Positions 4,882 through 44,153 of a stretch of DNA of 64,000 nt are shown one piece after another. The DNA lies in the NCBI GenBank assembly GCA_026129305.1, contig JAHCII010000001.1:26270-90269 (forward strand). The letters are read 5' to 3'. The notes beneath the pieces were generated by a model that was not told the origin of the DNA, ran no database searches, and worked only from the letters and a program-made list of their open reading frames with translations. This stretch comes from Anaerolineales bacterium (GTDB lineage Bacteria > Chloroflexota > Anaerolineae > Anaerolineales > UBA11579). The position numbers were made by a program, and so were the translations under genes. Numbering within the stretch: the stretch's first letter is position 1; each line of letters opens with the position of its first letter.

Positions 4882-5598
4882 ATGATGATGGCCAAACGCC
4901 GCAAGGGGCTGAGCGAACGACATAAGAAGATCCTGGAGGTGCTGGAGAAGTACCAGACCGAAACCGGTTACCCACCCTCCATCCGCGAGATTGGCAAACA
5001 AACCGGCATCTCCTCGACCTCCGTGGTTAATTACTATTTAAACCAGTTGGAAGAAGAGGGTTACATTGAGCGCGACCGCAAGATCTCGCGCGGCGTACGT
5101 CTGGTCAAGGGCCTCACCGGACAGTTGGAGGAAGCCGCCGAGAAGGTGCGCAGCGCCATCGAGGACCTGATCCGCGTGCCGGTGATCGGTCGCATCGTGG
5201 CCGGCGAACCCATGCCGGTGCCCACCTCTGATTTCGGCTACTACGACCCGGAAAGCGGCGTGGAAATCGCCCGCAGCCTGCTGGCCCCCGGCGACAAAGA
5301 AGAAGACCTGTTCGCTCTGGAAGTGCAGGGCGACTCGATGATCGACGCCATGGTCAATGATGGCGACATCGTAGTCATGAAACGCTCGCAAGACGCCCGC
5401 AACGGCGAAATGGTGGCCGTATGGCTCACCGACCGCGACGAGACCACCTTGAAGTACTTCTACAAGGAAAACGGCGGCATTCGGCTGCAACCCGCTAACC
5501 CCACCATGCAGCCCATCATTGTGGATAACCCGCGCGCCGTGCAGGTGCAAGGCAAAGTGGTGATGGTCATCCGCCAGATGGACGCATCGGCCAACTAA
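4882..5598 (+). CDS. lexA: LexA repressor
   Basis: The wHTH 'YPPSIREIGKQTGISSTSVVNYYLNQLEEEGYI', the Ala-Gly cleavage site 'VAGEP', and S24 peptidase 'VQGDSM...VVMKR' are all present. ATG at 4882 is preceded by GGAGAG. The longer ORF starting at 4774 was rejected. Confidence 0.95.
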   Translation: MMMAKRRKGLSERHKKILEVLEKYQTETGYPPSIREIGKQTGISSTSVVNYYLNQLEEEGYIERDRKISRGVRLVKGLTGQLEEAAEKVRSAIEDLIRVPVIGRIVAGEPMPVPTSDFGYYDPESGVEIARSLLAPGDKEEDLFALEVQGDSMIDAMVNDGDIVVMKRSQDARNGEMVAVWLTDRDETTLKYFYKENGGIRLQPANPTMQPIIVDNPRAVQVQGKVVMVIRQMDASAN

Positions 5599-5682: not shown

Positions 5683-6645
5683 ATGACAGAAGCCAACAGC
5701 CAACGCGTCCTGGTCGAGCTGATTAAAGAGATTGCCGCAGACCAAAGATACGGCCTGACCTGTTTTTCGCACGACTGGATCCTGCGCCTGGAGAAGAACG
5801 GGGCCACCCGCCATATCTTTGGCTACAACTTCGAGATCAACTCAGCCACCGCCGAATTACTGGCCGGGGACAAAGCCGCCATCGCCGACCTGTTGGCCCA
5901 TCAAGGGATAGCCAATGTTCCGCATCGCCTATTTTTGCACCCGCGGCTGAGCGGCTACGTTTCTGCCAAAGGCAACTGGCCTGCCATGTTGGCCTCCGCA
6001 GAGGAATTCGGCTATCCATTGGTATGCAAGCCCAACGCGGGCACGGGCGGCCTGGGGGTAACCCTGGTGAACAACGTGGCCGAACTGGAGCTGGCCGTGT
6101 ACACCTTGTTTCAGAAACACCGCGGCATCAGCTTTTCGCCTTATCTGGAGATCGACCAGGAGTTCCGCGCCATCATGCTGGACGGGGAACTGCAGCTGCT
6201 CTACACCAAGCGCCGCCCCCACGTGGTCGGTGACGGGCAGGCCAGCCTGATGCAGCTGATTCAGGCTGCGCAGGCTGGCGGGCAGCTGTCCGCCGAGGCC
6301 GCCGGGCAAGCCATCGAAAACAAACAGAACGATCTGCAAACGGTGCCTGCTGTGGGCGAAGAAGTGCTGCTGGGGTGGAAGCACAACCTGGGCGCCGGCT
6401 CCAGCCCGCAACAGCTGGGCGATGGCCCCTTAGCCAGCCAACTGAGCCGTCTAGCGCGCCAAGCGCAGCAAGCGATCAACATCCGCTTCGCTTCGGTGGA
6501 TATTGTCGAGGTGCAAGGCGAACACCGCGTGCTGGAGATCAACTCCGGTGTGATGATGGAGCATTTTGTGCGCAGCCAGCCGGAACACCGCGCCACGGCC
6601 AAGGCGATCTATGCCAGGGCGATCGAGCGCATGTTCGGCGCCTGA
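5683..6645 (+). CDS. ATP-grasp family ligase (first gene of the acyl-sugar operon)
   Basis: Motifs 'YPLVCKPNAGTGGLGV', 'EFRAIMLDGE' and 'LEINSGVMMEH' match the ATP-grasp core (RimK/cyanophycin-synthetase-like). There is no obvious SD. TACAAT lies at 5670-5675. Confidence 0.7.
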   Translation: MTEANSQRVLVELIKEIAADQRYGLTCFSHDWILRLEKNGATRHIFGYNFEINSATAELLAGDKAAIADLLAHQGIANVPHRLFLHPRLSGYVSAKGNWPAMLASAEEFGYPLVCKPNAGTGGLGVTLVNNVAELELAVYTLFQKHRGISFSPYLEIDQEFRAIMLDGELQLLYTKRRPHVVGDGQASLMQLIQAAQAGGQLSAEAAGQAIENKQNDLQTVPAVGEEVLLGWKHNLGAGSSPQQLGDGPLASQLSRLARQAQQAINIRFASVDIVEVQGEHRVLEINSGVMMEHFVRSQPEHRATAKAIYARAIERMFGA

Positions 6646-6670: not shown

Positions 6671-7324
6671 TTGAATGTGGCGCCAACCAAGCTGCCTGCG
6701 GGCATCCCCCGCAGCAAACGTATCTTAGACATCAGCCTGACCCTGCTGGCGCTGCCCTTGGCATTGCCCCTGGCGGGGTTGGTGGCGCTGCTAGTGCGCC
6801 TCTTCCTGGGGCGGCCGGTGCTCTTTCGGCAGGAACGCCCTGGCTACCGCGGCCTGCCCTTTACCCTCTACAAATTCCGCACGATGAAAGACCTGCGCGG
6901 GCCGGACGGCGAACTGCGTCCGGATGCCGAACGGCTGACCGTGCTGGGCCGCCTGCTGCGCGCCTCCAGCCTGGATGAGTTGCCCGAGCTATACAATGTG
7001 CTGAGCGGAGAGATGAGCCTGGTGGGGCCGCGGCCGCTGCTGATGCGCTACCTGGACCGCTACACCGCCGAGCAGGCGCGCCGCATGCAGGCGCTGCCCG
7101 GGCTGACCGGCTGGGCGCAGGTCAACGGGCGCAACAACGTTTCCTGGGAGGACAAGTTCGCCCTGGACGTATGGTATGTGGACCACTGGTCGCTGTGGCT
7201 GGACCTCAAGATCTTGCTGCTGACCCCACTGAAGGTGCTGCGCCGCGAGGGTATCAACCAGCCCGGCAACGCCACTGCGGTGGAATTTATGGGCAGCCAG
7301 GGCCAGGAAGGGCGGCGAGTATAA
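6671..7324 (+). CDS. Small monotopic phosphoglycosyltransferase (bacterial sugar transferase, PglC/WbaP C-terminal type)
   Basis: 'KRILDISLTLLALPLALPL' fits a re-entrant helix. 'PVLFRQERPGYRGLPFTLYKFRTM', the 'DELPEL' Asp-Glu dyad and 'MSLVGPRP' are family motifs. The start is uncertain (TTG 6671 or GTG 6677). Confidence 0.85.
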   Translation: MNVAPTKLPAGIPRSKRILDISLTLLALPLALPLAGLVALLVRLFLGRPVLFRQERPGYRGLPFTLYKFRTMKDLRGPDGELRPDAERLTVLGRLLRASSLDELPELYNVLSGEMSLVGPRPLLMRYLDRYTAEQARRMQALPGLTGWAQVNGRNNVSWEDKFALDVWYVDHWSLWLDLKILLLTPLKVLRREGINQPGNATAVEFMGSQGQEGRRV

Positions 7325-8226
7325 TGCCGCCCATGCCAGACCAGGCCGGCCTGTACCGGCAGATGTACCGCATCCGCCGCTTCGAAGAAACCGTACTGGA
7401 TGCCTTCCCCAAGGGTCTTTTCTACGGCACCACACATACCTATATTGGGCAGGAGGCCAACGCGGCCGGCGTGCTGGCCCACCTCGGCGCGCAAGACATC
7501 GTCTTCAGCAACCACCGCTGCCACGGGCACTTCATTGCCTACGGTGGCGACCTGCGGGCCCTGTTCGCCGAACTGATGGGCAAGGCCACCGGCGTGTGCG
7601 GCGGCCTGGGCGGCTCACAGCACCTGCACTGGCGCAATTTCTATTCCAACGGGGTGCTGGGCAGCACAGCGCCCATCGCCGTGGGGACCGCCCTGGCCGA
7701 GAAGGCCAAAGGCAGCCCGGCCGTGGCGCTCCTCTTCCTGGGCGATGGAGCCTTGGGCGAAGGCACGGTCTACGAGAGCCTCAATATGGCCAGCCTGTGG
7801 GGCGCGCCGGTCCTGTTCGTGGTGGAAAACAACCACATCGCCCAAACCACACCCATCGAGCTGGCCCTGGCCGGCGACATCGCAGCCCGTTTCAACGCCT
7901 TCGGCATCCCATGCCAGCGGCTGGATAGCAGCGATGTACTGGAAATCCATACAGCCGCCGAAGCGGAGTTCGCCGCGCTGCGGGCCGCGCCCGGTCCGCG
8001 GGCGCTGGTGTTGGACACCCAGCGTTTTGGCCCGCACTCCAAGGGCGACGACACCCGCGACGAAGCGGCGATGGCCAGCATCCGCCAGCAGCGCGACCCG
8101 CTGGCGCTGCTGGCCCCCAAACTGGCCGAGGCCCAACGCGCCGCCCTGGAGGCCGAGGTACAGGCCGAGGTGGCCGCCGCCTTTGCTCAGGCCGAGGCCG
8201 ACCCCTTCCCGGTGGCGCTCCCATGA
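7324..8226 (+). CDS. TPP-dependent 2-oxoacid (pyruvate/acetoin-type) dehydrogenase E1 alpha subunit
   Basis: The TPP motif 'GDGALGEG...VVENNH' and 'RFGPHSKGDD' (equivalent to YRxxGHSxSD) are present. ATG 7324 overlaps the upstream stop as TAATG. Confidence 0.85.
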   Translation: MPPMPDQAGLYRQMYRIRRFEETVLDAFPKGLFYGTTHTYIGQEANAAGVLAHLGAQDIVFSNHRCHGHFIAYGGDLRALFAELMGKATGVCGGLGGSQHLHWRNFYSNGVLGSTAPIAVGTALAEKAKGSPAVALLFLGDGALGEGTVYESLNMASLWGAPVLFVVENNHIAQTTPIELALAGDIAARFNAFGIPCQRLDSSDVLEIHTAAEAEFAALRAAPGPRALVLDTQRFGPHSKGDDTRDEAAMASIRQQRDPLALLAPKLAEAQRAALEAEVQAEVAAAFAQAEADPFPVALP

Positions 8227-9242
8227 CCAGCGTACTGCAAGCCCTCAACCGCGGCCTGCACGCTGCCTTCCAGGACCCGCGCGTCCACCTGCTGGGCGAG
8301 GATGTGCTGGACCCCTACGGCGGCGCCTTCAAGGTCAGCCAGGGGCTTTCGACCGCCTACCCCGAACGCGTCTGGACCAGCCCAGTCTCTGAGGCCGGGC
8401 TGGCCGGCGTGGCGGCGGGCATGGCGCTGCGCGGCCTGCGCCCGGTGGTGGAGATCATGTTCGGTGACTTCAGCACGCTGATCGCCGATCAGATCATCAA
8501 CAGTATCAGCAAATTTGGCAGCATGTATGGCGGGGCAGTCCACGTGCCGCTGGTGGTGCGCACGCCGATGGGCGGCCGTCGCGGCTACGGCCCCACCCAC
8601 AGCCAAACGCTGGAAAAGCTCTTTTTGGGAGTGCCCGGCCTGCGCGTCCTGGCGGCCAATTCCCTCAGCGACCCCGGAGAGCTGCTGCGCCGGGCGATCT
8701 TCGAAGATGACGGCCCAGTCTTCTTTATAGAGAACAAGCTGTTGTATTTGCAGCCCCTTCTGACGACCGAAGACTTGCAAGATTTCGAGATCGAATTGCA
8801 CACTCCCCCCGCAGCGTATGCGGCCACGCACACGCTGCGACTCAGAGGCGCGTCGGCCCCCGCTCTGACCCTGACCGCCTATGGCTACATGGCGGAGCTG
8901 GCCCGCCAGGCGCAGCTGCGCCTGGCCTTTGAACACGAGATTTTCTGCGAACTGGTGGTGCCGGCCCAACTGGCCCCTCTGGCAGCCGGCGGCGAACTGG
9001 ACGCGGCCTTGGCCGCCTCGCTGAGCAAGAGCGGCCGGCTGCTGGCCATAGAAGAAGGCAGCTACACCCTGGGCTGGGGCGCCGAGGTGCTGGCCCGCGC
9101 CGCGCAGGCATTCCCGGGCGGCCTCAAGACGGCCGCCCGCCTGGCCGCCCCCGACGCGCCCATCCCCGCCTCACGCCCACTGGAAGAAGCCGCCCTGCCG
9201 GATGTTGAGGACATCCTGGCAACCGCGCAAAGAATGGTATAA
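8223..9242 (+). CDS. 2-oxoacid dehydrogenase E1 beta subunit (transketolase-like Pyr and C-terminal domains)
   Basis: 'LLGEDVLDPYGGAFKVSQGL', 'PVSEAGLAGVAAGMALRGLRPVVEIMFGDF' match E1 beta. Its start overlaps the E1 alpha stop as ATGA. Confidence 0.85.
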   Translation: MTSVLQALNRGLHAAFQDPRVHLLGEDVLDPYGGAFKVSQGLSTAYPERVWTSPVSEAGLAGVAAGMALRGLRPVVEIMFGDFSTLIADQIINSISKFGSMYGGAVHVPLVVRTPMGGRRGYGPTHSQTLEKLFLGVPGLRVLAANSLSDPGELLRRAIFEDDGPVFFIENKLLYLQPLLTTEDLQDFEIELHTPPAAYAATHTLRLRGASAPALTLTAYGYMAELARQAQLRLAFEHEIFCELVVPAQLAPLAAGGELDAALAASLSKSGRLLAIEEGSYTLGWGAEVLARAAQAFPGGLKTAARLAAPDAPIPASRPLEEAALPDVEDILATAQRMV

Positions 9243-9253
9243 CCGCGCCAGAT

Positions 9254-10348
9254 ATGAGCGCAGCCTTGGCGGTCACCATCCCGCTGATCAACCCCAACGA
9301 AAATGAAGCCCATCTGGCCGCATTGCACGTTAAACACGGCCAGGCGGTAAAGAGCGGTACGCTGCTGGCCACGCTGGAGACCACCAAGTCCACCTTCGAG
9401 CTGATCGCCGAGGCGGACGGCTTTGTGGCCGGCCTGCAGGCCCAACCCGGCGGCAAGCTGCGCGCCGGGGCCTTATTCTGCTACCTGGCGCCCACCCCGG
9501 ACTGGGAAGCCCCCAAGGCCGAAGAGAAGCGCAGCCAGCCCGGCGAAGTTCCGGAAGGGCTGCGCATCACCCAGCCCGCCTTGCTGTTGGCGCAGCAAGA
9601 AGGCTTGGACCTGAGCCAATTGCCGGTCGGGCCGATCATCACCGAGGCGCAAGTGCGCGCAGCCCTGGGCGGGGCCAAAGCCGCAGATAGTGAAATTCCG
9701 CCCGGCGTGGCCGCCAGCAACGCCGTATTGGTCTACGGCGGCGGCGGTCACGGCAAGGCGGTCATCGACTTGATGCGCGCCGCCGGAAGCTACACACCGG
9801 CCGGCGTACTGGACGACGGCCGCCAGCCCGGCGAGCAGGTGCTGGATGTGCCCGTGCTGGGCGGCCAGGGCTTGCTCAGCGCGCTGCGCGCCGCGGGCAG
9901 CCGGCTGGCCGCCAACGCCGTGGGCGGCATTGGCGCGATGAGCAGCCGCATACACGTATTCGAAATCCTGCGCGGGGCCGGCTTTGAATTCCCCAGCCTG
10001 GTGCACCCCAGTGCCGTGCTGGAACCCAGCGTCCAGCTCAATGACGGTGGGCAGGTCTTCCCGCATGCCTACATCGGCTCAGATGCGCAAATCGGCTTTG
10101 GCGGCATCATCAACACCGGCGCCGTCGTCTCGCACGATTGCGTGCTGGCGGACATGGTTAACCTGGCGCCTGGCGCCATCCTGGCAGGGGGGGTGCAGGT
10201 GGGCCAGGGCGCGCTGATCGGCATGGGCGTCACCGTCAACCTGGGGGTCAAGATTGGCGCCGGCGCCCGGGTGGGCAACAGCGCCACGGTCAAGGGCGAT
10301 GTGCCGCCCGGCGGTGTGGTGCGCGCCGGGGCTATCTGGCCGAACTAA
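9254..10348 (+). CDS. Chimeric E2-like protein: lipoyl domain, then peripheral-subunit-binding-like segment, then PglD/NeuD-family hexapeptide sugar acyltransferase
   Basis: aa 1-80 look like a lipoyl/biotinyl fold with 'LATLETTKSTFEL' (K45, nt 9386-9388). aa ~103-137 'LRITQPALLLAQQEGLDLSQLPVGPIITEAQVRAAL' resemble a PSBD. aa ~157-364 carry 'VLVYGGGGHGKAVIDL', 'GVLDD', hexapeptide repeats and 'VVSHDC' (His294, nt 10133-10135). There is no E2 'DHRxxDG' core. Confidence 0.75.
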   Translation: MSAALAVTIPLINPNENEAHLAALHVKHGQAVKSGTLLATLETTKSTFELIAEADGFVAGLQAQPGGKLRAGALFCYLAPTPDWEAPKAEEKRSQPGEVPEGLRITQPALLLAQQEGLDLSQLPVGPIITEAQVRAALGGAKAADSEIPPGVAASNAVLVYGGGGHGKAVIDLMRAAGSYTPAGVLDDGRQPGEQVLDVPVLGGQGLLSALRAAGSRLAANAVGGIGAMSSRIHVFEILRGAGFEFPSLVHPSAVLEPSVQLNDGGQVFPHAYIGSDAQIGFGGIINTGAVVSHDCVLADMVNLAPGAILAGGVQVGQGALIGMGVTVNLGVKIGAGARVGNSATVKGDVPPGGVVRAGAIWPN

Positions 10349-10403: not shown

Positions 10404-11312
10404 TTGGGTTACAGTGAAGCCGTGGCCGGGAAGAAGACAGACCGCAAAGGCACACGCAGTTCCGCGTTTGGCACCGCCGGGCGCGTCAACCACGATGCCA
10501 CCACTTTTTACAACAGCGCCCTATACAGCCAACAGAACCCGCCAACTCCCGATAGCCTCAACGAAAACCCCCTTCCCGCAACCGCACACAACCGTATTTT
10601 CGGCCACAGCAGCGAGCACATGCCGGAACTGCCTGACGGCAGCGTGCATCTGATGGTCACCTCGCCCCCCTACAACGCCGGCAAAGAATACGACCAGGAC
10701 CTAAATCTGGAAGATTACTTGGCCTTGCTGCGCCGAGTGTGGGCCGAGACCTGCCGCGTCCTGGCCCCCGGCGGGCGGGCCTGCATCAACCTGGCCAATT
10801 TAGGTCGCAAGCCTTACATTCCGCTGCATGCCTACATCATCCAGGATATGCTGGCCCTGGGGTACCTGATGCGCGGCGAGATCATCTGGGACAAAGGCTC
10901 CAGCGCCAGCGCTTCTACGGCTTGGGGGTCCTGGCTATCCGCCAGCAACCCCACCCTGCGCGATGTGCATGAATACATCCTGGTCTTTAGCAAGGGCGCC
11001 TTTGGCCGGGCCAAACCAGCCGGCGGTGAAGACACCATCGCCAAAGAAGACTTCCTGCAGAACAGCAAAAGCGTATGGAGCTTTCCGGCGGTGTCCGCCC
11101 GGCGCGTCGGCCACCCGGCCCCCTTCCCCGAAGAATTGCCGGCCCGCCTGATCCAGCTGTACAGCTTTACAGGCGACGTGGTGCTGGACCCGTTCATGGG
11201 CAGCGGCACCACAGCACTGGCAGCCCGCAAAGCGGGCCGTAACTATGTAGGCTACGAAACCAGCCGGGATTACATCCAGCTGGCCGAGGCTCGCATCGCT
11301 AAAGGCAGCTAA
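10404..11312 (+). CDS. Beta-class N4-cytosine/N6-adenine DNA methyltransferase (SPPY type), no adjacent endonuclease
   Basis: Motif IV 'VTSPPYNAG' is near the N-terminus and motif I 'DPFMGSGTTALAA' near the C-terminus, which is the beta-class order. The start is uncertain (TTG 10404 or GTG 10422). Confidence 0.8.
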   Translation: MGYSEAVAGKKTDRKGTRSSAFGTAGRVNHDATTFYNSALYSQQNPPTPDSLNENPLPATAHNRIFGHSSEHMPELPDGSVHLMVTSPPYNAGKEYDQDLNLEDYLALLRRVWAETCRVLAPGGRACINLANLGRKPYIPLHAYIIQDMLALGYLMRGEIIWDKGSSASASTAWGSWLSASNPTLRDVHEYILVFSKGAFGRAKPAGGEDTIAKEDFLQNSKSVWSFPAVSARRVGHPAPFPEELPARLIQLYSFTGDVVLDPFMGSGTTALAARKAGRNYVGYETSRDYIQLAEARIAKGS

Positions 11313-12940
11313 GTCCCAAACTGCAAACGTACGATCTTGTCGTCTGAGGTGGGCACATGGTGATAACTGACCCAGATGTCGCCGTTGCCACTGTCAATGG
11401 CCATATGCCGGATCAGGGCATACGGCGTGGGCAGCGGATATTCCACAAAAGTTTCGGTCAGCGGGTCAAAACTGGCCACGCGGTTGCCGGCCGCATAGCC
11501 GATCCAGACCAGGCCGCGCTGGTGGTCAATCTTAACCACATAGGGCTCAGCATTCTTGGTGGGCACTTCCCACTCCGTAAAGGTTTCCGTGCCCGGGTCA
11601 AACATCGCCAGGCGGCCGCCGGAAAACTCGGGGATCCACAGTTTGCCGTCAGCATCAATATCAAACCGCCGCGGACCACTGGTATCATGCGGGAACTCAT
11701 AGTAAGCCACTTCGCGAGTCTCAGGATGCAGCTTATAGATCCGGTTCCAATTCAAGTCTGAGACCCACACCATGTTGTCCGGACCTACCCGAATCTCGTA
11801 AGAGATCGGCAGTCCGGCCAGGTTGGAAACGTTGTTGTCTGGGATGTCAAAAACCAAGCGAGAACCATCCGGACTGACCCGGATGACCTTGCCCGGGTCG
11901 GAGAGGAAATGCCCATTAACCCAAGCATTGCCTTCGGAATCGAGCGCGACACTGTGCGCGTACATGTCAATAGAGTAGGTTTCGAATTCCGCGGTGAGCG
12001 GGTCAAAGAGAGCCAATTGGTGCGGGCTGCCAAAGACGATCCACCAGTTCCCCTCAGCATCCAGTTCCAACGCGCGGGGGTTGGCGTTGGGCTTTAAAGC
12101 ATAGCGGGTAAATTCGCCGCTCTCCGGGTCCAACAAATACATGTTGTGGCTGAACATGCCGGTAATGATGATCTGACCGTTTGAGTCGAGCACCAGGTCG
12201 TGAGGGCCAGCGCCTGGGAAGTCATACTCGGTCATGCGTACCTTGGCGGCCTGGGCGGTCACAGGCTGCGGCAGCGGCGGCTGGGTTTCCGCAGTCAGAT
12301 AGTGCGCCAGCCAGGCAGCCGTTTCCTCCACATCCAGAGGCCCGATGATCGGGAACCCGCTCTGCGGTCCGTAAAAGCTCAGCATCTTGCGGATGGACGC
12401 TTGCCACTGGGTTTCCGTGGGCCAGCCATTGTAGGCCTTACGCGGCCAGCCGAGCTGGTGACAACCCTGGCAGTCCAAAATGAACTGCCGGGTTTGGGCA
12501 TCGTCCGGCAGGACGCTTAGCCATTCGGCACCGCTGACCTGGTCGCGAATGTCCGCGGTGGGCGGCAGGCTCAGGTCGATCTCAAGCGCAGCGGCGGAGG
12601 TGATTGTGACATTGTGCGGCAGGGAATATTGATAACCAAACCCATGCGAGGAGATCACATAATCCCCAGCCGCCAGACCCGGCAGGGCATAGCGGCCATC
12701 TCCGTCCGAAAAGACCGTTACGGTCACACCTCGATCGTTGCGGGCCTGCACAAAGGCGAAGGGCACCGGGTTGCTGGTGCCGGCCTGCGTGACCCAGCCC
12801 TGGACTGCGCCCACAAAATCGGTCTGGGTGGTCACAGTAACTTCGAGCGGGGCAGCCGCGGTTGTTGGTGCGGCCGGCGCAGGACCACAGGCACAAAGAC
12901 CAAGTATCCATACCAAGCATGCACGCTTTACCATCAACAT
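11309..12940 (-). CDS. Secreted lipoprotein: CarboxypepD_reg-like domain, CXXCH heme motif, and Vgb/NHL-like beta-propeller
   Basis: Lipobox 'LGLCACG', 'SDGDGRYALPGLAAGDYVI', and 'CQGCH' are present. Repeated 'G..W(I/V)...' blades resemble streptogramin-lyase-like propellers. Confidence 0.6.
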   Translation of the reverse strand: MLMVKRACLVWILGLCACGPAPAAPTTAAAPLEVTVTTQTDFVGAVQGWVTQAGTSNPVPFAFVQARNDRGVTVTVFSDGDGRYALPGLAAGDYVISSHGFGYQYSLPHNVTITSAAALEIDLSLPPTADIRDQVSGAEWLSVLPDDAQTRQFILDCQGCHQLGWPRKAYNGWPTETQWQASIRKMLSFYGPQSGFPIIGPLDVEETAAWLAHYLTAETQPPLPQPVTAQAAKVRMTEYDFPGAGPHDLVLDSNGQIIITGMFSHNMYLLDPESGEFTRYALKPNANPRALELDAEGNWWIVFGSPHQLALFDPLTAEFETYSIDMYAHSVALDSEGNAWVNGHFLSDPGKVIRVSPDGSRLVFDIPDNNVSNLAGLPISYEIRVGPDNMVWVSDLNWNRIYKLHPETREVAYYEFPHDTSGPRRFDIDADGKLWIPEFSGGRLAMFDPGTETFTEWEVPTKNAEPYVVKIDHQRGLVWIGYAAGNRVASFDPLTETFVEYPLPTPYALIRHMAIDSGNGDIWVSYHHVPTSDDKIVRLQFGT

Positions 12941-18430: not shown

Positions 18431-20722
18431 ATGCGATCTTTACACGGCTTTGGTCTTTGTCTATTGGCCCTGCTTTTGGCTGCCTGTTCGCCAGGCGCTA
18501 CAGCAAACCAGCCTGACACGCAATCCAGCGCAGCTGACACTCCGCCACGCTTGGCTTTGGATGTGCCGCGTATAGCGATCCGGGTAGTGGAGGGTCGCGG
18601 CGAATTCTATAACTCACGCACCGGCCAGACTTTCGTCGCCCGCGGCGTCAACTATGTCGACTTTTACCGGGCGGAGCATGGGGGTTACGAAGACCGCCTG
18701 ATGGCCACCAATGTCTACGACCCACAGCGGGTGCGGGCAGCTTTCCGACTCCTGGCCCAATACGGCTACAACACCGTGCGCATCTTCTTCGATACCTGCG
18801 GCAGCGGGCCTTTTTGCATCGGCAACCCCGCCGGTAGCGGCCTCAATCCCGCCTATCTCGACAACATGGTCGACCTGATGCAGATCGCCGGTGAGGAAGG
18901 CATTTACATCATCTTCACCGCCAATTCGGTGCCGGAGAACGGCGGCTACTGGGCGTACTTTGACCAGCAGATCTATTCAGCCGATCAACGCTTCGGGTTT
19001 GAAGACTACCGCAACGCCGATTGGCTGCACCCGGCTGGGATAGAGATCAAACGCCACTTTTGGCAGGACTTGATGGCCGGGATGGTCGAGCGCGAAGCGC
19101 CCTTCGAGGTCATACTCGGCTGGCAGCTCACCAATGAGCTGTGGCTATGGAAAGACGTGCCCCCACTATCGCTGGACCAAGGCCAAGTCACCATTTCCAA
19201 CGGGAATAGCTACGACATGGCCGATGAAGCTCAAAAACGCCAGATGGTCGTGGATGGCGTGCTTTTTTATATAGACGAGGTGGCCGCGATCGTCAAACAG
19301 CACGACCCACAAGGATTGGTGACCGTAGGCTTCTTCGCGCCGCAATTCCCTAACCCGACCGGTATCGGCGGGGACTGGTATGTGGATACGGCCCCGTTGA
19401 TCGAAAGCGAGGCGGTGGATTTTTGGGACTTCCATGCCTACTACGACACCGACCTGAGCGTGGAACAACAAGCGGAAAATTTTGGCATGCTAGGGCATGA
19501 AGAAAAGCCCGTCATCATGGGCGAGACCGGTTCCGGGCACGCCATCTTCCCTTCGGCCTTCACCGCCCTCAGCATCGGTCTGCAGTACATCGCCGACTCC
19601 TGCGCAGTGGGCTTTGACGGCTGGCTGCACTGGGGCTACTACCCCTGGCCGGACGATCTGGACGGCAAGCCCTGGACAATGCTTGAAGAAGATCAGCTGA
19701 TGCTGAAGGCCATGTCGCCGGCCCAGCAGCCGGACCCCTGCGTGGTGCCGCCGCAGGAACAAGCCAACGTGGCGCTGGGGCGGGCAGTGCAATCCTCCAG
19801 CCAGCTCGTCGAAAACCCCGCCCGGGCCGCAGTGGATGGCAAGAGCACACCCTGGAACGCCGGCAATTACCCACCGCAATGGATCGAAGTGGCGTTGGAT
19901 GAAGCCACCACCATCCAGCAGGTGGGCATGAGCATTGAGCAATGGCCCCCCGGAAATACCCGTCACCAGGTCTGGGCCAGGTTCGAAGGCGGCGCGCAAG
20001 TGCTGGTGGCTGAATTCTACGGCTTCACCAGCCTTGATGGGCGGCTGGTCTTCCGGTTGCCCATCCCGCTGGCTGGGGTGAGCGCGGTGCGCATCCTGAC
20101 CCTCGAGAGCCCGGCTTGGGTCGCATGGCGCGAGATCGAAGTGATCTCCGCGCCCCCGTCAGATACAGACGCCTGCATTGGCCGGGCTCTGGTCACCACC
20201 CAGTTGCGCCGCTGGCCAGGCGGCGACCAGCCCAGTGTCTCCCAGTTGAGCGTTGGACAGCTGGCCTACTTGGATGGACGCTTGGAGGCAGCGGATGGCA
20301 GCCAGTGGCTGCGGGTGGGCGCCGGTTTATGGGCAGCCGCCGAAGATCTGGCGCTCTCCGGTGACTGTCAATCGAGCTTGCTAAGCGGCCAACCGCTGCC
20401 GTTCACGGTAGCAGTCACCTTTCAGGTTGAGGCGCCAGCCGGCTCGGGACCGGAGATCTTCATGGGCGGGGATCTACAGCACCCTGGCATCCCGCCCTGG
20501 ACTCCGTGGAGTGTGCTGCTGCAGCCAAGCGGCAATGTGTATCGAGTGACGGTGGATCTGCCGGTGGGCGAGGAGATCCGCTATGCCTACAATCTGGGCG
20601 GCTGGGAGCGGGTCGAGCGCGGCGTTAACTGCGCCGAGACGGCGCCGCGCAGCTTGGTGATCGAAGCCGACCCGATGCTGGTCGAAGACACTGTTTTGAA
20701 CTGGTTGGGCACACATTGCTAA
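18431..20722 (+). CDS. Secreted multidomain glycoside hydrolase (GH5-like clan GH-A, F5/8 type C discoidin, SH3-like, CBM-like)
   Basis: Lipobox 'LLAACS' is present. GH5-type motifs are 'YGYNTVRIFF', 'LTNELW' (acid/base NE), 'FHAYY' and 'IMGETG' (nucleophile). The discoidin-like stretch is 'NVALGRAVQSSS...WNAG...QWIEV', and the C-terminal 'FQVEAP...IFMGGD...YAYNLGGW' resembles a CBM. Confidence 0.65.
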   Translation: MRSLHGFGLCLLALLLAACSPGATANQPDTQSSAADTPPRLALDVPRIAIRVVEGRGEFYNSRTGQTFVARGVNYVDFYRAEHGGYEDRLMATNVYDPQRVRAAFRLLAQYGYNTVRIFFDTCGSGPFCIGNPAGSGLNPAYLDNMVDLMQIAGEEGIYIIFTANSVPENGGYWAYFDQQIYSADQRFGFEDYRNADWLHPAGIEIKRHFWQDLMAGMVEREAPFEVILGWQLTNELWLWKDVPPLSLDQGQVTISNGNSYDMADEAQKRQMVVDGVLFYIDEVAAIVKQHDPQGLVTVGFFAPQFPNPTGIGGDWYVDTAPLIESEAVDFWDFHAYYDTDLSVEQQAENFGMLGHEEKPVIMGETGSGHAIFPSAFTALSIGLQYIADSCAVGFDGWLHWGYYPWPDDLDGKPWTMLEEDQLMLKAMSPAQQPDPCVVPPQEQANVALGRAVQSSSQLVENPARAAVDGKSTPWNAGNYPPQWIEVALDEATTIQQVGMSIEQWPPGNTRHQVWARFEGGAQVLVAEFYGFTSLDGRLVFRLPIPLAGVSAVRILTLESPAWVAWREIEVISAPPSDTDACIGRALVTTQLRRWPGGDQPSVSQLSVGQLAYLDGRLEAADGSQWLRVGAGLWAAAEDLALSGDCQSSLLSGQPLPFTVAVTFQVEAPAGSGPEIFMGGDLQHPGIPPWTPWSVLLQPSGNVYRVTVDLPVGEEIRYAYNLGGWERVERGVNCAETAPRSLVIEADPMLVEDTVLNWLGTHC

Positions 20723-41273: not shown

Positions 41274-41577
41274 CCTGCCTGCTTGGGCCCTGCTTAGACC
41301 GAGTCTATAGGTTCTTTAGGCTCTTTTTAGGGCGCTTAGATTAACAAATCTCAGGGATTCGGGGAATCTATGGCATAATTCCGCGAATTAAGCCCTATAA
41401 TGCTCATACTATGAAGGCCGCATCGTGTTACGGTGCGGTTCTGGTTGGTCTGGATTCTGACACTACACAGATAACCAGCAAGAGCGTTAGGTTTCCGAGG
41501 AGGTGATTTGCCGCAAGGAACATGTGACACAGATCTACCCCGACTATCCCACTTTCAAAGTTTACGGAGGAGAAAAT

Positions 41578-44124
41578 ATGTACCGTAATCGCATTTTGGC
41601 GCTGTTCAGTGGCCTGATTATCCTCAGCCTGCTGTTGGGCGCCTGCGCGGCTCCTGCTCCGGCAGCGACCGAGGTTGCGACCGAAGATGATGTTGCAACC
41701 GAAGAAGCGACCGAAGAGGCCGCTCCCCAGACCACCCGCCGTGGTGGCTGGCTGGATGAGATCGGCATGAAGGTTGTTGGCGCCGACTCCGCGATCACCC
41801 AGATCGCGGCTGGCGACATCGACATCTACACGTCGAACCTGTCCCGCCCCCAGGACGTTCAGGCTTCTGACGCCGCTGGTTTGGAGCGCTCGTTCCAGTA
41901 TGGTATCTACTACGAGCTGACCTTCAATCCCGCGGAGTTCTCGACCGGCGTCTACAACCCGTTCACCAACCAGGCCATCCGCAAGGCCATGAACAACCTG
42001 ATTGACCGCGACTACATCAACCAGGAAGTTTATGGCGGCTTGGGCACGCCGAAGTTCTTCTCGTTCGTGTCCGCCTTCCCGGATTATGCCCGCCACGTGG
42101 ACGTGATCCGTGGTCTGGAAGCTGACCTGGCTTACGACCCGGCCCGCGCCGAAGCGGAAATCTCCGCTGCGCTGGAAGCCGATGGCGCTGAACTGGTCAA
42201 TGGTGTGTGGAGCCACAGTGGCGCCCCGCTGAACCTGATCTTCCTGATCCGCAGCGACTCCGACGGCACCCGCGTGCCGGTGGGCGATTATGTCGCCAAC
42301 CAGCTCGAGTCGATCGGTTTCGAAGTGACCCGCCAGTACGGCACCTCCTCGGAGTTGGCCGCCCTGTGGGTAAGCGGTAACGCCGCTGACGGCCTGTGGC
42401 ACATCTACACCGGTGCCTGGGGCGTGGGTGGTATCACCCGCGACGATGCTGGCGACTTCCAGTTCTTCGATTCTCCGGACAGCGCTTACGGCTTCACCAC
42501 CCTGTGGCAGTCGTTTGGCAACCACATCGATCCTGAGTATCAGGCCCTGGCGAATGACCTGGCCAATGCTGCTTACTCCAACCTGGATGAGCGCAAGGAA
42601 ATGGTGGGCCGCGCCCTGCAGTACTCTGCTGAGCACGCTTTCCATGTCTGGTTGATCGACGGTCAGGCCTTCAGCCCCTGGCAGCCGAACGTCTCCGTGG
42701 CGTTCGACTTGGCCGCTGGTGTGGACATCAACCCCCTGACCACCTTCACCCTGCGCTTCGATGATCGCGAGGGCGGCACCCTGCAGTGGGGTACCCCTGA
42801 CCTGTTCGTCGAGCCCGCCAACCCGATTGGTGGTAGCAACTGGACCTACGACAACCAATGGCAGCTGCTAACGCGTGACTCCGCTGTGTTGCTGAACCCG
42901 CACACCGGTATCCCGCTGCCGCAGCGCATTGCTGGCGCTGAGGTTTACGCTCAGGAAGGTCTGCCCATCGGCACCACCTATGACTGGGTCGACCTGAGCT
43001 TCGTGGATGGCAATGAAGTCCCGGCTGAGGCCTGGATCGATTGGGATCCCGTTGCTGAAACCTTCATCACCGTGGGTGAGGCTTACCCGGATGGTCTGTC
43101 CTCCCTGATCAAGACCGTGGTGACCTACCCCTCCGAACTGTATGACCGCACCTGGCACGATGGCAGCCCGATGACCGTGGCTGACTTCATCATGCCGGCG
43201 ATCATGACCTTTGCCACCGGCACCGAGGGCAGCAGCATCTACGATGAAGCTGCCGCTGGCGGCCTGGCTGCCTTCAAGGGCGGCTTCAAGGGTTGGAACA
43301 TCACCTCCACCGATCCTCTGACGATTGAGTACTACACCGATGTGTGGACTCAGGACGCTGAGCTGATCGCTGGCGCCGGCGCCGCCACCCTGTGGCCGGA
43401 ATACGGCTACGGCAACTCTGGCTGGCACGCGATCGCTGCTGCCAACCTGGCTGAAGCCGCTGGCGACCTGGCCTACACGCCTGACAAGGCTGTGGTTCAG
43501 GAAACCGAGCAGACCAACTTTGTGGGTGGCCCCAGCCTGGAAATCCTGGCTGGCTACCTGCAGCAGGCTGCTGACGAAGGCTACGTGCCTTTCGCCGCCG
43601 TCTTGGGTGATTACATCACCGCTGACGAGGCGAGCGCCCGCTACAACAACCTGCTCGGCTTCTACGCCGACCATGGCCATGTGTGGGCGGGTGTCGGTCC
43701 GTACATCCTGGATCAGGCCTTCTTGGTAGAGAAGACCGCCGTCCTGGTGCACAACGCCGACTACACTGACTTGGCTGACAAATGGTCCTCCTTCGCTGCG
43801 CCGAAGGTTGCCACCACTGAGATCGATGGTTCCGCCCGCGTCACCGTGGGTGAGGAAGCCACCTTCGATGTGTTGGTCTCCTTTGCTGGTGATGCGTACC
43901 CGGCCAACGAGATCAGCAGCGTCAGCTACCTGCTGTACGACGCTGAGGGTGCCTTGGTTGAGACTGGCGAAGCCACTCCGGTTGCTGATGGTCATTACAC
44001 CGTCACCCTGAGCGGCGCCTCCACCTCCGCCCTGGGCGCTGGCTCCAACAAGCTCGAAGTGGCTGTTGTGGTCATCCCGGTCAGCATCCCGGCCTTTGCC
44101 ACCTTCGACTTCGTGACCGAGTAA
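41578..44124 (+). CDS. Family-5 (peptide/nickel-type) ABC substrate-binding lipoprotein, unusually large (~848 aa)
   Basis: Lipobox 'LLLGACA' is present and SBP_bac_5-like sequence runs throughout. There is a C-terminal Ig-like extension. ATG 41578 follows GGAGGA. Confidence 0.8.
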   Translation: MYRNRILALFSGLIILSLLLGACAAPAPAATEVATEDDVATEEATEEAAPQTTRRGGWLDEIGMKVVGADSAITQIAAGDIDIYTSNLSRPQDVQASDAAGLERSFQYGIYYELTFNPAEFSTGVYNPFTNQAIRKAMNNLIDRDYINQEVYGGLGTPKFFSFVSAFPDYARHVDVIRGLEADLAYDPARAEAEISAALEADGAELVNGVWSHSGAPLNLIFLIRSDSDGTRVPVGDYVANQLESIGFEVTRQYGTSSELAALWVSGNAADGLWHIYTGAWGVGGITRDDAGDFQFFDSPDSAYGFTTLWQSFGNHIDPEYQALANDLANAAYSNLDERKEMVGRALQYSAEHAFHVWLIDGQAFSPWQPNVSVAFDLAAGVDINPLTTFTLRFDDREGGTLQWGTPDLFVEPANPIGGSNWTYDNQWQLLTRDSAVLLNPHTGIPLPQRIAGAEVYAQEGLPIGTTYDWVDLSFVDGNEVPAEAWIDWDPVAETFITVGEAYPDGLSSLIKTVVTYPSELYDRTWHDGSPMTVADFIMPAIMTFATGTEGSSIYDEAAAGGLAAFKGGFKGWNITSTDPLTIEYYTDVWTQDAELIAGAGAATLWPEYGYGNSGWHAIAAANLAEAAGDLAYTPDKAVVQETEQTNFVGGPSLEILAGYLQQAADEGYVPFAAVLGDYITADEASARYNNLLGFYADHGHVWAGVGPYILDQAFLVEKTAVLVHNADYTDLADKWSSFAAPKVATTEIDGSARVTVGEEATFDVLVSFAGDAYPANEISSVSYLLYDAEGALVETGEATPVADGHYTVTLSGASTSALGAGSNKLEVAVVVIPVSIPAFATFDFVTE

Positions 44125-44153
44125 TTCACGAACTAGAAGCGTAAAAGCCAAAC

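What the first reader, a model, noticed from the sequence alone, without database searches (positions are those of the whole stretch)
9254..10348. E2 scaffold whose catalytic core is replaced by a PglD/NeuD-type sugar N-acyltransferase
**Seen in the sequence**
- aa 1-80 look like a lipoyl (biotinyl/lipoyl hybrid-barrel) domain, with the candidate swinging-arm lysine in 'LETTKST' (K45, nt 9386-9388).
- aa ~103-137, 'LRITQPALLLAQQEGLDLSQLPVGPIITEAQVRAAL', resemble the peripheral-subunit-binding domain that docks E1/E3 in 2-oxoacid dehydrogenase complexes.
- aa ~157-364 are not the chloramphenicol-acetyltransferase-like E2 core, and no DHRxxDG motif is present.
- That region is instead a NeuD/PglD-type module: 'VYGGGGHGKAVIDL...VLDD', then a left-handed beta-helix of hexapeptide repeats with 'VVSHDC' (His294, nt 10133-10135) at the position of the PglD catalytic His.

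**Established background**
- PglD/NeuD enzymes N- or O-acylate nucleotide-linked amino sugars using acyl-CoA.
- E2 lipoyl arms carry acyl groups generated by E1.

**Inference**
The acyl group loaded on the lipoyl arm may be handed directly to an amino sugar, bypassing CoA. As I recall, AcoC proteins of acetoin systems carry an alpha/beta-hydrolase fold behind the lipoyl domain. That would be a precedent for core swapping, but not with a sugar acyltransferase.
Basis: partly seen in the sequence, partly recalled or inferred. Interest (0 to 1): 0.86.

Follow-up and report, generated by a model that had tools for sequence, protein, structure and literature searches.

The report
Lipoyl-arm sugar N-acyltransferase with dedicated E1
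This gene fuses the lipoic-acid "swinging arm" and docking domain of a pyruvate-dehydrogenase E2 subunit to a PglD/PerB-type amino-sugar N-acyltransferase. It almost always sits just after its own E1 decarboxylase genes, which suggests a widespread, undescribed way to acylate cell-surface amino sugars from a 2-oxoacid without acyl-CoA.

Summary
ORF 9254-10348 (364 aa) has four parts:
- a lipoyl domain, with K45 at the hairpin tip;
- a short peripheral-subunit-binding domain (PSBD), seen only at profile and structure level;
- a PglD_N domain;
- a left-handed beta-helix closest to GDP-perosamine N-acetyltransferase PerB, with His294 on PerB's catalytic His141.

There is no CAT-like E2 core and no DHRxxDG motif.

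The gene is the last in a tightly coupled operon: phosphoglycosyl transferase, E1 alpha, E1 beta, fusion.

The fusion is a large family. At least 124 of the best 150 cluster representatives (50% identity) carry both halves, and named members come from at least six phyla. K45 is kept in 120 of 121 diverse members and His294 in 119 of 121.

E1 beta lies directly upstream in 79 of 80 Anaerolineae genomes and in 54 of 57 diverse metagenome loci. Two relatives without a lipoyl domain have no E1. Typical neighbours are DegT aminotransferases, 4,6-dehydratases, PglC-like transferases and NeuB.

The C-terminal domain carries a clade-specific signature (Ser293, Met324, Asn342) that free-standing relatives lack.

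Most likely, E1 loads an acyl group (probably acetyl, from pyruvate) onto lipoyl-K45, and the beta-helix domain passes it to an NDP-4-amino-4,6-dideoxy sugar. The CoA bypass is inferred, not shown. No description was found in the searchable literature.

The parts
9254..10348 (+). Fusion protein (364 aa): lipoyl domain, linker, PSBD, linker, PglD_N, left-handed beta-helix
   Evidence: It is 100% identical to P0001, from an Anaerolineales bacterium MAG.
9263..9493 (+). Lipoyl domain (aa 4-80)
   Evidence: Pfam Biotin_lipoyl covers aa 8-76. The family profile hits E2 and E3BP lipoyl domains. The AF2 model shows beta-strands with pLDDT 89-98. Foldseek matches 3crk_C.
9386..9388 (+). AAG codon of K45, the predicted lipoyl-lysine in 'LETTKST'
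   Evidence: The codon was read directly. K is kept in 120/121 diverse members and E42 in 119/121. It aligns to the lipoyl-lysine of E2p and lies in the turn between strands 37-42 and 47-51.
9560..9682 (+). Peripheral-subunit-binding domain (aa 103-143), with a loop 3 residues shorter than canonical PSBDs
   Evidence: The family profile A3 hits solved PSBDs at 1e-4 to 1e-2. The model has helices 107-115 and 131-143. [ST]106 and A109 are kept in 120/121 members. Pfam E3_binding does not detect it.
9722..9973 (+). PglD_N-type nucleotide-sugar-binding domain (aa 157-240), containing 'YGGGGHGK'
   Evidence: Pfam PF17836 covers aa 158-237. It aligns with PerB and PglB-ATD.
9995..10333 (+). Left-handed beta-helix acyltransferase domain (aa 248-360)
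   Evidence: Hexapep and TIGR03570 hits. PerB matches with TM 0.91. The clade signature is E257, Q267, G275, S293, M324 and N342.
10133..10135 (+). CAC codon of His294, the predicted catalytic base
   Evidence: It aligns to PerB His141; 4eaa and 4eab are the H141N and H141A mutant structures. It is kept in 119/121 members.
7324..8226 (+). E1 alpha (300 aa), ThDP-dependent and PDH-like
   Evidence: Pfam E1_dh at 1e-56. The best solved relative is human PDH E1 alpha at 5e-45, against 2e-20 for BCKDH. The GDG...ENN and 'GPHS' motifs are visible in the translation. Its start overlaps the PGT stop as TAATG.
8223..9242 (+). E1 beta (339 aa)
   Evidence: Transket_pyr and Transketolase_C hits. Human PDH E1 beta matches at 2e-40. 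It overlaps E1 alpha through ATGA. It lies directly upstream of the fusion in 79/80 and 54/57 loci.
6671..7324 (+). Small PglC/EpsL-type polyprenyl-phosphate phosphoglycosyl transferase (217 aa)
   Evidence: Pfam Bac_transf at 5e-59 and TIGR03025. It is found upstream in more than half of the Anaerolineae loci and in 12/29 large metagenome loci.
5683..6645 (+). ATP-grasp protein (320 aa), an accessory gene kept only in the closest relatives
   Evidence: Weak ATP-grasp, RimK and cyanophycin-synthetase hits. It is present in the loci whose fusion protein is at least 63% identical, and is replaced by an EamA transporter in L001.

Best explanation
The ORF appears to be the carrier-plus-transferase subunit of a small, self-contained system that makes acyl-lipoyl and uses it to N-acylate a sugar. 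The proposed cycle has four steps.

1. The E1 alpha/beta heterotetramer encoded just upstream decarboxylates a small 2-oxoacid. Pyruvate is the most likely substrate, because the E1 is PDH-like. E1 then reductively acylates the lipoyl group on K45 of the fusion protein.
2. E1 is held on the fusion protein by the PSBD. The same PSBD probably also recruits the cell's housekeeping E3.
3. The flexible linkers (aa 81-102 and 144-156) let the acyl-dihydrolipoyl arm swing into the active site. That site lies between subunits of the trimeric left-handed beta-helix. There His294 deprotonates the 4-amino group of an NDP-4-amino-4,6-dideoxy-hexose, which is held by the PglD_N domain. The amine attacks the thioester. 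The products are the N-acyl sugar and dihydrolipoyl-K45.
4. E3 re-oxidises the arm.

The N-acylated sugar is then used by the co-encoded PglC-like phosphoglycosyl transferase. In other lineages it is used by nonulosonic-acid or O-antigen enzymes.

**Shown here:** the domain architecture, conservation of the key residues, the near-obligate linkage to E1, the amino-sugar gene contexts, and a clade-specific remodelling of the beta-helix.

**Inferred:** lipoylation of K45, loading by E1, direct transfer without CoA, the identity of the acyl group, and the use of E3.
For: **Architecture and model.**

**Conservation.** Across 121 members at 28-56% identity, K45 is kept in 120, E42 in 119 and His294 in 119. 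The motif is E-[TS]-[ST]-K. Per-member Pfam scans find Biotin_lipoyl in 119/121 and PglD_N in 119/121.

**Operon.** Start and stop codons overlap between PGT and E1a and between E1a and E1b. An 11-nt gap precedes the fusion gene.

**Linkage to E1.**
- E1b is adjacent in 79/80 GTDB Anaerolineae loci.
- In diverse metagenome loci, E1b is adjacent in 54/57 and E1a in 45/47.
- E1 is a fused alpha-beta polypeptide, still adjacent, in Bacteroidota and Omnitrophota.
- The lipoyl-less relatives L129 and L131 have no E1.
- L093 has lost the PSBD and also has no E1.

**E1 looks catalytically complete.** It has the ThDP motif and the alpha-His and beta-His motifs used for lipoyl acylation. These are read from the translations; the family assignment rests.

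**Amino-sugar context.** Among 29 loci of at least 8 kb, DegT occurs in 21, a 4,6-dehydratase in 13, a PGT in 12 and NeuB in 3. In L004 the fusion occupies the LegH/PglD slot of a legionaminic-acid-type cluster. L168 and L170 give further examples.

**No canonical E2 nearby.** None of the loci whose genes were Pfam-annotated or scanned (window, L001-L004, L006, L007, L168-L170) contains a CAT-like E2. The fusion is therefore the only lipoyl partner encoded next to these E1s.

**Remodelled beta-helix.** S293/M324/N342 occurs in 106/121 fused members. Free-standing NeuD-like relatives have E293 with S or I at 324 and A or M at 342. The changed positions form ladders 18 residues apart along the helix.

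**Precedent.** An E1-plus-lipoyl system that feeds an amide-forming enzyme and borrows the host E3 has been proposed for pepteridine biosynthesis (PMC5384830).
Against: - There is no biochemical evidence of any kind.
- The C-terminal domain is still 40-46% identical to ordinary acyl-CoA-dependent enzymes such as PerB and free-standing NeuD-like proteins. It passes the TIGR03570 cut-off. It could therefore still bind acyl-CoA.
- The PSBD is seen only at profile and structure level, not by Pfam.
- No E3, lipoate ligase, DegT or 4,6-dehydratase gene lies in this 64-kb window. Here the acceptor pathway and cofactor machinery must be encoded elsewhere.
- The profile separates lipoyl from biotinyl domains only modestly: 2e-13 against 3e-12.
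- If the acyl group is plain acetyl, the advantage over acetyl-CoA is unclear.
- In two Flavobacteriia loci the cassette sits in NRPS clusters. The acceptor is therefore not always a sugar.
Confidence: 0.6

Rival explanations
1. The machinery is the same, but the point of it is a non-acetyl acyl group. E1 would accept another small 2-oxoacid, for example hydroxypyruvate (giving glycolyl), 2-oxobutyrate (giving propionyl) or acetoin-type substrates. The module would then install an unusual N-acyl substituent for which the cell has no acyl-CoA pool.
For: The Omnitrophota cluster L169 encodes both the lipoyl fusion and an ordinary 205-aa PglD-like acetyltransferase side by side. That suggests the two have non-redundant acyl donors or target different amines. 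A dedicated E1 is hard to justify for acetyl alone. Nonulosonic acids are known to carry varied N-acyl groups such as glyceroyl and possibly glycolyl, with no known genetic basis (PMC5378307). The E1 scores well below the PDH equivalog cut-offs: 237 against 394 bits for alpha and 175 against 321 for beta.
Against: E1 alpha is far closer to pyruvate dehydrogenase (5e-45) than to branched-chain E1 (2e-20). No substrate-pocket analysis was possible. The two acyltransferases in L169 could simply act on two different amino groups.
Confidence: 0.3
2. The beta-helix domain remains an ordinary acyl-CoA-dependent N-acetyltransferase. The lipoyl/PSBD module and E1 would serve another role. One option is local production of acetyl-CoA, with the beta-helix site first passing acetyl from the arm to bound CoA. 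Another is simple scaffolding or regulation.
For: The protein passes the TIGR03570 cut-off. It is 40-42% identical to PerB, whose structures contain CoA, and superposes at rmsd 1.2-1.3 A. Free-standing relatives at 40-46% identity exist.
Against: No CAT-type E2 domain is present to move acyl groups from lipoyl to CoA. K45 is nearly invariant and E1 is almost obligately adjacent, which would be unexplained if the arm were idle. The fused clade has its own conserved active-site and groove signature: S293 in place of E/D, plus M324 and N342.
Confidence: 0.15
3. The N-terminal barrel is not lipoylated. It would be a biotinyl carrier or a cofactor-less barrel-sandwich docking domain. The E1-like enzyme would do ThDP carboligation on a keto-sugar rather than reductive acylation.
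For: The Pfam model covers both biotinyl and lipoyl domains. Biotinyl domains score only slightly below lipoyl domains with the family profile. Weak Biotin_lipoyl_2 and HlyD hits are also present.
Against: The motif is E-T-[ST]-K-[AS], like E2 'ETDKA', and there is no M-K-M. The top hits are E2 and E3BP lipoyl domains. A PSBD follows. The partners are E1 alpha/beta carrying both lipoyl-acylation His motifs, never carboxylases.
Confidence: 0.05

Closest known systems
E2 (dihydrolipoyl acyltransferase) subunits of 2-oxoacid dehydrogenase complexes with heterotetrameric E1, for example the Geobacillus or human PDH complex
   Same: The N-terminal lipoyl domain has its lysine at the hairpin tip. 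Flexible linkers and a PSBD follow. The gene lies immediately downstream of E1 alpha and E1 beta. The catalytic module is trimeric with active sites between subunits. E3 is presumably needed to recycle the arm.
   Different: The chloramphenicol-acetyltransferase-like core with DHRxxDG is absent. It is replaced by PglD_N plus a left-handed beta-helix. The predicted acceptor is an amino sugar, not CoA. A bare trimer cannot form a 24- or 60-mer core. The PSBD loop is 3 residues shorter.
PerB, PglD, PglB-ATD and VioB (NeuD/PglB/VioB family, TIGR03570): acetyl-CoA-dependent N-acetyltransferases of NDP-4-amino-4,6-dideoxy sugars
   Same: The two-domain fold matches (TM 0.91 to PerB). The catalytic His sits in the 'xHDC' motif and the conserved Asn287 is retained. 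The gene neighbourhood is the same: DegT aminotransferase, 4,6-dehydratase and PglC-type transferase. In Neisseria, PglB is itself fused to the transferase.
   Different: The fusion carries about 155 extra N-terminal residues (lipoyl domain plus PSBD) and has a dedicated E1. The acidic residue before the catalytic His is Ser. There are clade-specific residues E257, Q267, G275, M324 and N342. The acyl donor is predicted to be protein-bound acyl-dihydrolipoyl rather than acyl-CoA.
AcoC-type acetoin dehydrogenase E2 (NCBIfam PRK14875) and the solved alpha/beta-hydrolase with an N-terminal PSBD (7qjm)
   Same: These show that the lipoyl and/or PSBD scaffold can be joined to a non-CAT catalytic fold.
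   Different: Their C-terminal module is an alpha/beta-hydrolase, not a sugar acyltransferase. They are catabolic and CoA-directed.
E1/E2-lipoyl systems recruited to secondary metabolism: the pepteridine pathway (E1-like protein plus E2 fused to NRPS T and C domains; PMC5384830), and the glycolicacyl extender unit of naphthyridinomycin/quinocarcin, as cited in that paper
   Same: An acyl group made by a ThDP-dependent E1 on a lipoyl arm is diverted from CoA into amide or assembly-line chemistry. E3 is not in the cluster and is borrowed from the host.
   Different: Those systems keep a canonical E2 catalytic domain and hand the acyl group to a phosphopantetheinyl carrier. Here the E2 core is gone, and a hexapeptide-repeat transferase is predicted to take the acyl group straight from the arm.

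Membership tests
2-oxoacid dehydrogenase E2 (dihydrolipoyl acyltransferase) | Lipoyl domain with the modifiable Lys at the tip of a beta-hairpin | tested here: met
   Pfam 32 bits against a cut-off of 22.1. The profile hits E2 and E3BP lipoyl domains with the Lys aligned. In the AF2 model K45 lies between strands 37-42 and 47-51. Foldseek matches 3crk_C at TM 0.80.
2-oxoacid dehydrogenase E2 (dihydrolipoyl acyltransferase) | Peripheral-subunit-binding domain | tested here: met
   This holds at profile and structure level only. A3 hits nine solved PSBDs at 9e-5 to 1e-2, and the model has two helices. Pfam E3_binding fails on the single sequence and on 120/121 members.
2-oxoacid dehydrogenase E2 (dihydrolipoyl acyltransferase) | CAT-like catalytic core (Pfam 2-oxoacid_dh) with the DHRxxDG motif | tested here: not met
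   There is no PF00198 hit and no DHR motif. The region folds as PglD_N plus a beta-helix. The protein is therefore not an E2 in the strict sense.
2-oxoacid dehydrogenase E2 (dihydrolipoyl acyltransferase) | Encoded with a cognate E1 | tested here: met
   E1a and E1b lie directly upstream with overlapping codons. This arrangement is kept in 79/80, 54/57 and 45/47 loci.
2-oxoacid dehydrogenase E2 (dihydrolipoyl acyltransferase) | Lys is actually lipoylated and reductively acylated by E1 | not testable with these tools
   This needs mass spectrometry or enzymology.
NeuD/PglB/VioB sugar N-acyltransferases (TIGR03570) | Score above the curated family cut-off, with PglD_N plus a left-handed beta-helix | tested here: met
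   167.3 bits against 160.8 over aa 158-356. PerB matches at TM 0.91 and rmsd 1.2-1.3 A.
NeuD/PglB/VioB sugar N-acyltransferases (TIGR03570) | Catalytic His equivalent to PerB His141 and PglD His125 | tested here: met
   His294 aligns to PerB His141. It is kept in 119/121 members.
NeuD/PglB/VioB sugar N-acyltransferases (TIGR03570) | Acyl-CoA as the acyl donor | not testable with these tools
   There is only indirect evidence for a changed donor: the S293/M324/N342 signature in 106/121 fused members against E/S,I/A,M in free-standing ones, and the obligate E1 and lipoyl partners.
NeuD/PglB/VioB sugar N-acyltransferases (TIGR03570) | Acts on an NDP-4-amino-4,6-dideoxy sugar made by a DegT aminotransferase | tested here: inconclusive
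   DegT, dehydratase, PGT and NeuB are neighbours in most large loci elsewhere. This window has only the PGT. Two loci are NRPS clusters.
Biotin carboxyl carrier domains | Met-Lys-Met biotinylation motif and carboxylase partners | tested here: not met
   There is no [AVE]MK[ML] motif. The family motif is E-[TS]-[ST]-K. The partners are E1 subunits.

The most novel reading that the evidence does not exclude
This would be a previously unrecognised class of swinging-arm enzyme: a minimal '2-oxoacid:amino-sugar N-acyltransferase complex'. A trimeric hexapeptide-repeat transferase replaces the E2 core. Acyl groups made by a dedicated E1 travel on a lipoyl arm directly to an amine, with no CoA thioester involved. 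The system is widespread (Chloroflexota, Bacteroidota, Omnitrophota, Armatimonadota, Gemmatimonadota and others). It has been reused in bacillosamine-type, nonulosonic-acid, O-antigen and even NRPS pathways. It may be the missing source of unusual N-acyl groups on bacterial surface sugars.
Probability: 0.55. Interest if true: 0.88.

Novelty: new variant of a known kind. Interest (0 to 1): 0.8.

Why it matters
**Enzymology.** As far as I know, lipoyl swinging arms deliver acyl groups only to CoA or, in a few natural-product pathways, to carrier proteins, and always through a CAT-like E2 core. If the proposed mechanism holds, this family would show two new things. A left-handed beta-helix transferase can take its acyl group from a lipoyl arm. 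Glycan tailoring can draw directly on the 2-oxoacid pool.

**Unusual sugar decorations.** The family would give a genetic handle on N-acyl diversity in bacillosamine-like and nonulosonic-acid sugars. The biosynthetic origin of several of these substituents is unknown.

**Annotation.** Hundreds of genes are currently named only 'NeuD/PglB/VioB family sugar acetyltransferase' or 'EpsM', and their E1 partners are named 'pyruvate dehydrogenase'. Those names inflate apparent central-metabolism content in MAGs, especially in Anaerolineae.

**Engineering.** The small three-gene module would also be an attractive part for glyco-engineering.

Tried and rejected
- **Pfam E3_binding.** The single linker sequence gave no hit even at E<=10. 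Per-member scans hit 1/121. I therefore built a family profile and searched solved structures instead.
- **Genome scan with the 121-sequence alignment.** It was redone with a 24-sequence subset. The best 80 loci were all Chloroflexota, so the wider taxonomy had to come from source names and individual look-ups.
- **Exact look-up of P0001.** It is not on record.
- **P0190 (865 aa).** This turned out to be an unrelated multi-hexapeptide protein with no E1 nearby.
- **Literature.** Ten searches combined lipoyl, E1 or pyruvate dehydrogenase with NeuD, PglD, bacillosamine, nonulosonic, legionaminic, pseudaminic or O-antigen terms. None found a description of this architecture. Apparent hits were unrelated: 'lipoylation' used to mean fatty acylation, an IlvB-like TPP enzyme in Shewanella, and a thiamine pyrophosphokinase-like domain in Maf.
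- **Tannerella forsythia lead.** The PglD-like BFO_1067 has a start codon earlier than annotated and could not be expressed. It lies in a Leg locus with five undescribed genes, and the glycan may carry an N-glycolyl group. I could not check it. The papers do not describe BFO_1068-1072, and no Tannerella protein appeared among the homologues.
- **Cofactor and pathway genes in the window.** I looked for E3, lipoate ligase, DegT and a 4,6-dehydratase and found none.
- **Horizontal transfer.** I considered it. The operon GC is 67.4% against 61.1% for the window. The synteny is conserved across Anaerolineae, so I did not pursue this.
Full report
**1. The observation**

ORF 9254-10348 (+) is real and encodes 364 aa. 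It is 100% identical to a protein of an Anaerolineales MAG that is annotated only as 'NeuD/PglB/VioB family sugar acetyltransferase'. Pfam gives Biotin_lipoyl (aa 8-76), PglD_N (aa 158-237) and Hexapep. No 2-oxoacid_dh core is found. NCBIfam TIGR03570 passes its cut-off, at 167.3 against 160.8 bits. The N-terminus hits E2o, E2p, AcoC and lipoyl-E1 beta models. There is no DHR or DHRxxDG motif and no M-K-M biotinylation motif.

**2. Domain by domain**

*Lipoyl domain.* A 50-sequence family profile finds E2p, E2o and E3BP lipoyl domains first. Examples are 1ghj at 2e-13 and 2dnc at 3.5e-13. The family 'ETsKa' aligns to 'E(G/T)DKA'. Biotinyl carriers follow closely, for example 8hz4_E at 3e-12. 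The profile score alone is therefore only a modest discriminator. The motif and the partner genes decide the question.

*PSBD.* Pfam E3_binding misses it. A 70-sequence profile of aa 98-142 hits nine solved PSBDs at 9e-5 to 1e-2. It also hits an alpha/beta-hydrolase that carries an N-terminal PSBD (7qjm). In each alignment the family loop is 3 residues shorter.

*Structure.* AlphaFold2 on a 121-sequence alignment gives mean pLDDT 94.2 and pTM 0.72.
- The model has a beta-barrel with K45 in the 43-46 turn.
- It has two PSBD helices (107-115 and 131-143).
- It has two lower-confidence linkers (81-102 and 144-156).
- A Rossmann-like domain and a beta-helix follow.

Foldseek returns PerB (TM 0.91, rmsd 1.2-1.3 A, 40-42% identity), PglB-ATD, PglD, VioB and WeeI. 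For the N-terminus it returns the PDH L2 lipoyl domain. 'VVSHDC' aligns to PerB 'VVDHDC', and the PerB H141N and H141A mutant structures mark that His as catalytic.

**3. It is a family, not an accident**

A search of 1.84 billion cluster representatives found 388 with E<=1e-30. Of the best 150, 124 carry both the lipoyl and the PglD-like halves, down to about 30% identity. In 121 full-length members K45 is kept in 120, E42 in 119, His294 in 119, and [ST]106 and A109 of the PSBD in 120 each. Source names place members in the following groups:
- Anaerolineales/Chloroflexota
- Omnitrophota
- Armatimonadota
- Gemmatimonadetes
- Bacteroidetes (Polaribacter, Dokdonia, Chitinophagaceae)

The scan of GTDB species genomes found 318 related stretches. 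The best 80 were all full-length and all from Chloroflexota.

**4. Gene context**

In the window the order is lexA, ATP-grasp, PglC-like phosphoglycosyl transferase (6671-7324), E1 alpha (7324-8226), E1 beta (8223-9242), then the fusion (9254-10348). The junctions TAATG and ATGA overlap, which indicates one translationally coupled operon. The rest of the window is housekeeping: ATP synthase, complex I, a Mur ligase, PNPase and similar genes. It holds no E3, lipoate ligase, DegT or 4,6-dehydratase.

Across genomes the E1 genes are the constant partner.
- E1 beta lies directly upstream on the same strand in 79 of 80 Anaerolineae loci. The one exception is cut by a contig end.
- Among 74 lipoyl-bearing loci from a metagenome scan centred on a 35%-identical member, E1 beta is adjacent in 54 of 57 and E1 alpha in 45 of 47 with enough flank. 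Two of the three exceptions have E1 nearby in another orientation.
- In Bacteroidota and Omnitrophota, E1 alpha and beta are fused into one polypeptide of 640-685 aa that is still adjacent.

Two natural controls support the link.
- Two relatives without a lipoyl domain (L129 and L131) have a PGT or DegT upstream instead of E1.
- L093 keeps the lipoyl domain, has lost the PSBD and has no E1 nearby.

**5. The acceptor**

In 29 loci of at least 8 kb, DegT aminotransferases occur in 21, 4,6-dehydratases in 13, PglC-like transferases in 12 and NeuB in 3. Individual loci are explicit.
- L168 reads E1ab, fusion, Bac_transf, DegT, PglF-like dehydratase.
- L004 reads LegB-like, DegT, PtmE-like, E1a, E1b, fusion, NeuB, Epimerase_2, CMP-transferase. 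There the fusion sits in the LegH/PglD slot.
- L170 is a Wza/Wzc/Wzx O-antigen-type cluster with DegT, E1ab and the fusion.
- L169 is a nonulosonic-acid cluster holding both the fusion and an ordinary 205-aa PglD-like enzyme.

This is the classical neighbourhood of PglD, PerB and VioB enzymes. An NDP-4-amino-4,6-dideoxy sugar acceptor is therefore well supported as inference. Two Flavobacteriia loci place the same cassette in NRPS clusters, so the acceptor can differ.

**6. The donor**

E1 alpha is PDH-like: human PDH E1 alpha matches at 5e-45, against 2e-20 for BCKDH. E1 beta behaves likewise. The translations show the GDG...ENN ThDP motif, and the 'GPHS' (alpha) and 'THSQ' (beta) histidines. 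From established knowledge of PDH E1, these histidines act in reductive acylation of lipoamide. Acetyl from pyruvate is the default reading. However, both subunits score far below the PDH equivalog cut-offs, and L169 has a second plain acetyltransferase. Other small 2-oxoacids therefore remain possible.

The fused clade's beta-helix carries its own signature. S293, M324 and N342 occur together in 106 of 121 members, along with E257, Q267 and G275. Free-standing relatives at 40-46% identity have E293, S or I at 324, A or M at 342, and S, I and N at the other three positions. Positions 257/275/293/311 and 306/324/342 are spaced 18 residues apart, which is one coil, so they form two stripes along the prism. 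That is what a changed donor groove would look like. Without coordinates I could not map them onto the CoA site of PerB.

**7. Mechanism and rivals**

Best explanation (confidence about 0.6):
1. E1 loads an acyl group on lipoyl-K45.
2. The PSBD tethers E1 and E3.
3. The arm delivers the thioester to the His294 site of the trimeric beta-helix, where the sugar's 4-amine attacks.
4. A housekeeping E3 re-oxidises the arm.

Rivals:
- The same machine is dedicated to a non-acetyl acyl group (0.3; this refines the main model rather than contradicting it).
- The transferase is still CoA-dependent and the arm has another role (0.15).
- The barrel is not lipoylated, or E1 acts as a carboligase (0.05).

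**8. Comparison and novelty**

By membership tests the protein is not an E2, because the catalytic core feature is not met. It does pass the sequence definition of the NeuD/PglB/VioB family. It works like a hybrid of the two. Precedents for parts of the idea exist:
- AcoC-type lipoyl/PSBD proteins with an alpha/beta-hydrolase core (PRK14875; 7qjm);
- E1/E2-lipoyl systems feeding NRPS carrier proteins with a borrowed E3 (PMC5384830).

Ten literature searches found no description of a lipoyl-fused hexapeptide-repeat sugar acyltransferase. I therefore rate it a new variant of a known kind. It is computationally well supported as a functional module, with the CoA-independent chemistry still to be demonstrated. 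Interest: 0.8.

Noticed in passing
window 4882-5598 (+), and L001, L002, L008-L019, L028, L029, L042, L044, L055, L076: A lexA gene lies just upstream of the cluster and in the same orientation. It recurs there in many Anaerolineae genomes. This may be plain synteny, or it may hint that this surface-glycan operon is under SOS control.
   Followed up: partly
L006 1-11113 and L007 1-11110: In two Flavobacteriia-type contigs (one named Dokdonia), the fused E1ab plus lipoyl-PglD cassette sits inside an NRPS cluster. That cluster has C, A, PCP and TE domains, a PPTase and a TonB-dependent receptor. There the cassette may N-acylate a peptide or siderophore amine rather than a sugar.
   Followed up: partly
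L169 8082-13026: An Omnitrophota nonulosonic-acid cluster encodes the lipoyl fusion, and two genes downstream an ordinary 205-aa PglD-like acetyltransferase. This suggests two distinct N-acylation steps or two acyl donors.
   Followed up: no
L093 7881-8945: This variant keeps the lipoyl domain ('LETSKTALE') and the PglD-like half. It lacks the PSBD and has no E1 gene nearby. That fits a role for the PSBD as the E1 dock.
   Followed up: partly
proteins P0415, P0412, P0146, P0155: Several rearranged versions exist. P0415 (474 aa) joins E1 beta domains directly to the beta-helix. P0412 (287 aa) has a lipoyl domain only. P0146 and P0155 (about 235 aa) carry the fused clade's S/M/N signature without a lipoyl domain. 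These may be split genes or truncated gene calls.
   Followed up: partly
window 10404-11312 (+): An N6/N4 DNA methyltransferase lies directly downstream of the fusion gene. It is conserved at that position in the closest relatives (L002, L008-L019, L033, L085). No restriction enzyme partner was noticed.
   Followed up: no
window 6671-10348: The operon has 67.4% GC, against 61.1% for the whole window.
   Followed up: no
window 18431-20722 (+), 41428-42858 (-), 42868-44151 (-), 41503-44124 (+): Long ORFs of 763, 476 and 427 aa have no Pfam match at E<=1e-5. The last two overlap an untested 873-aa ORF on the opposite strand, so which strand is coding is unresolved.
   Followed up: no
window 11309-12940 (-): A predicted 543-aa protein combines a CarboxypepD_reg domain with a virginiamycin B lyase-like beta-propeller. 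It converges on the methyltransferase gene.
   Followed up: no
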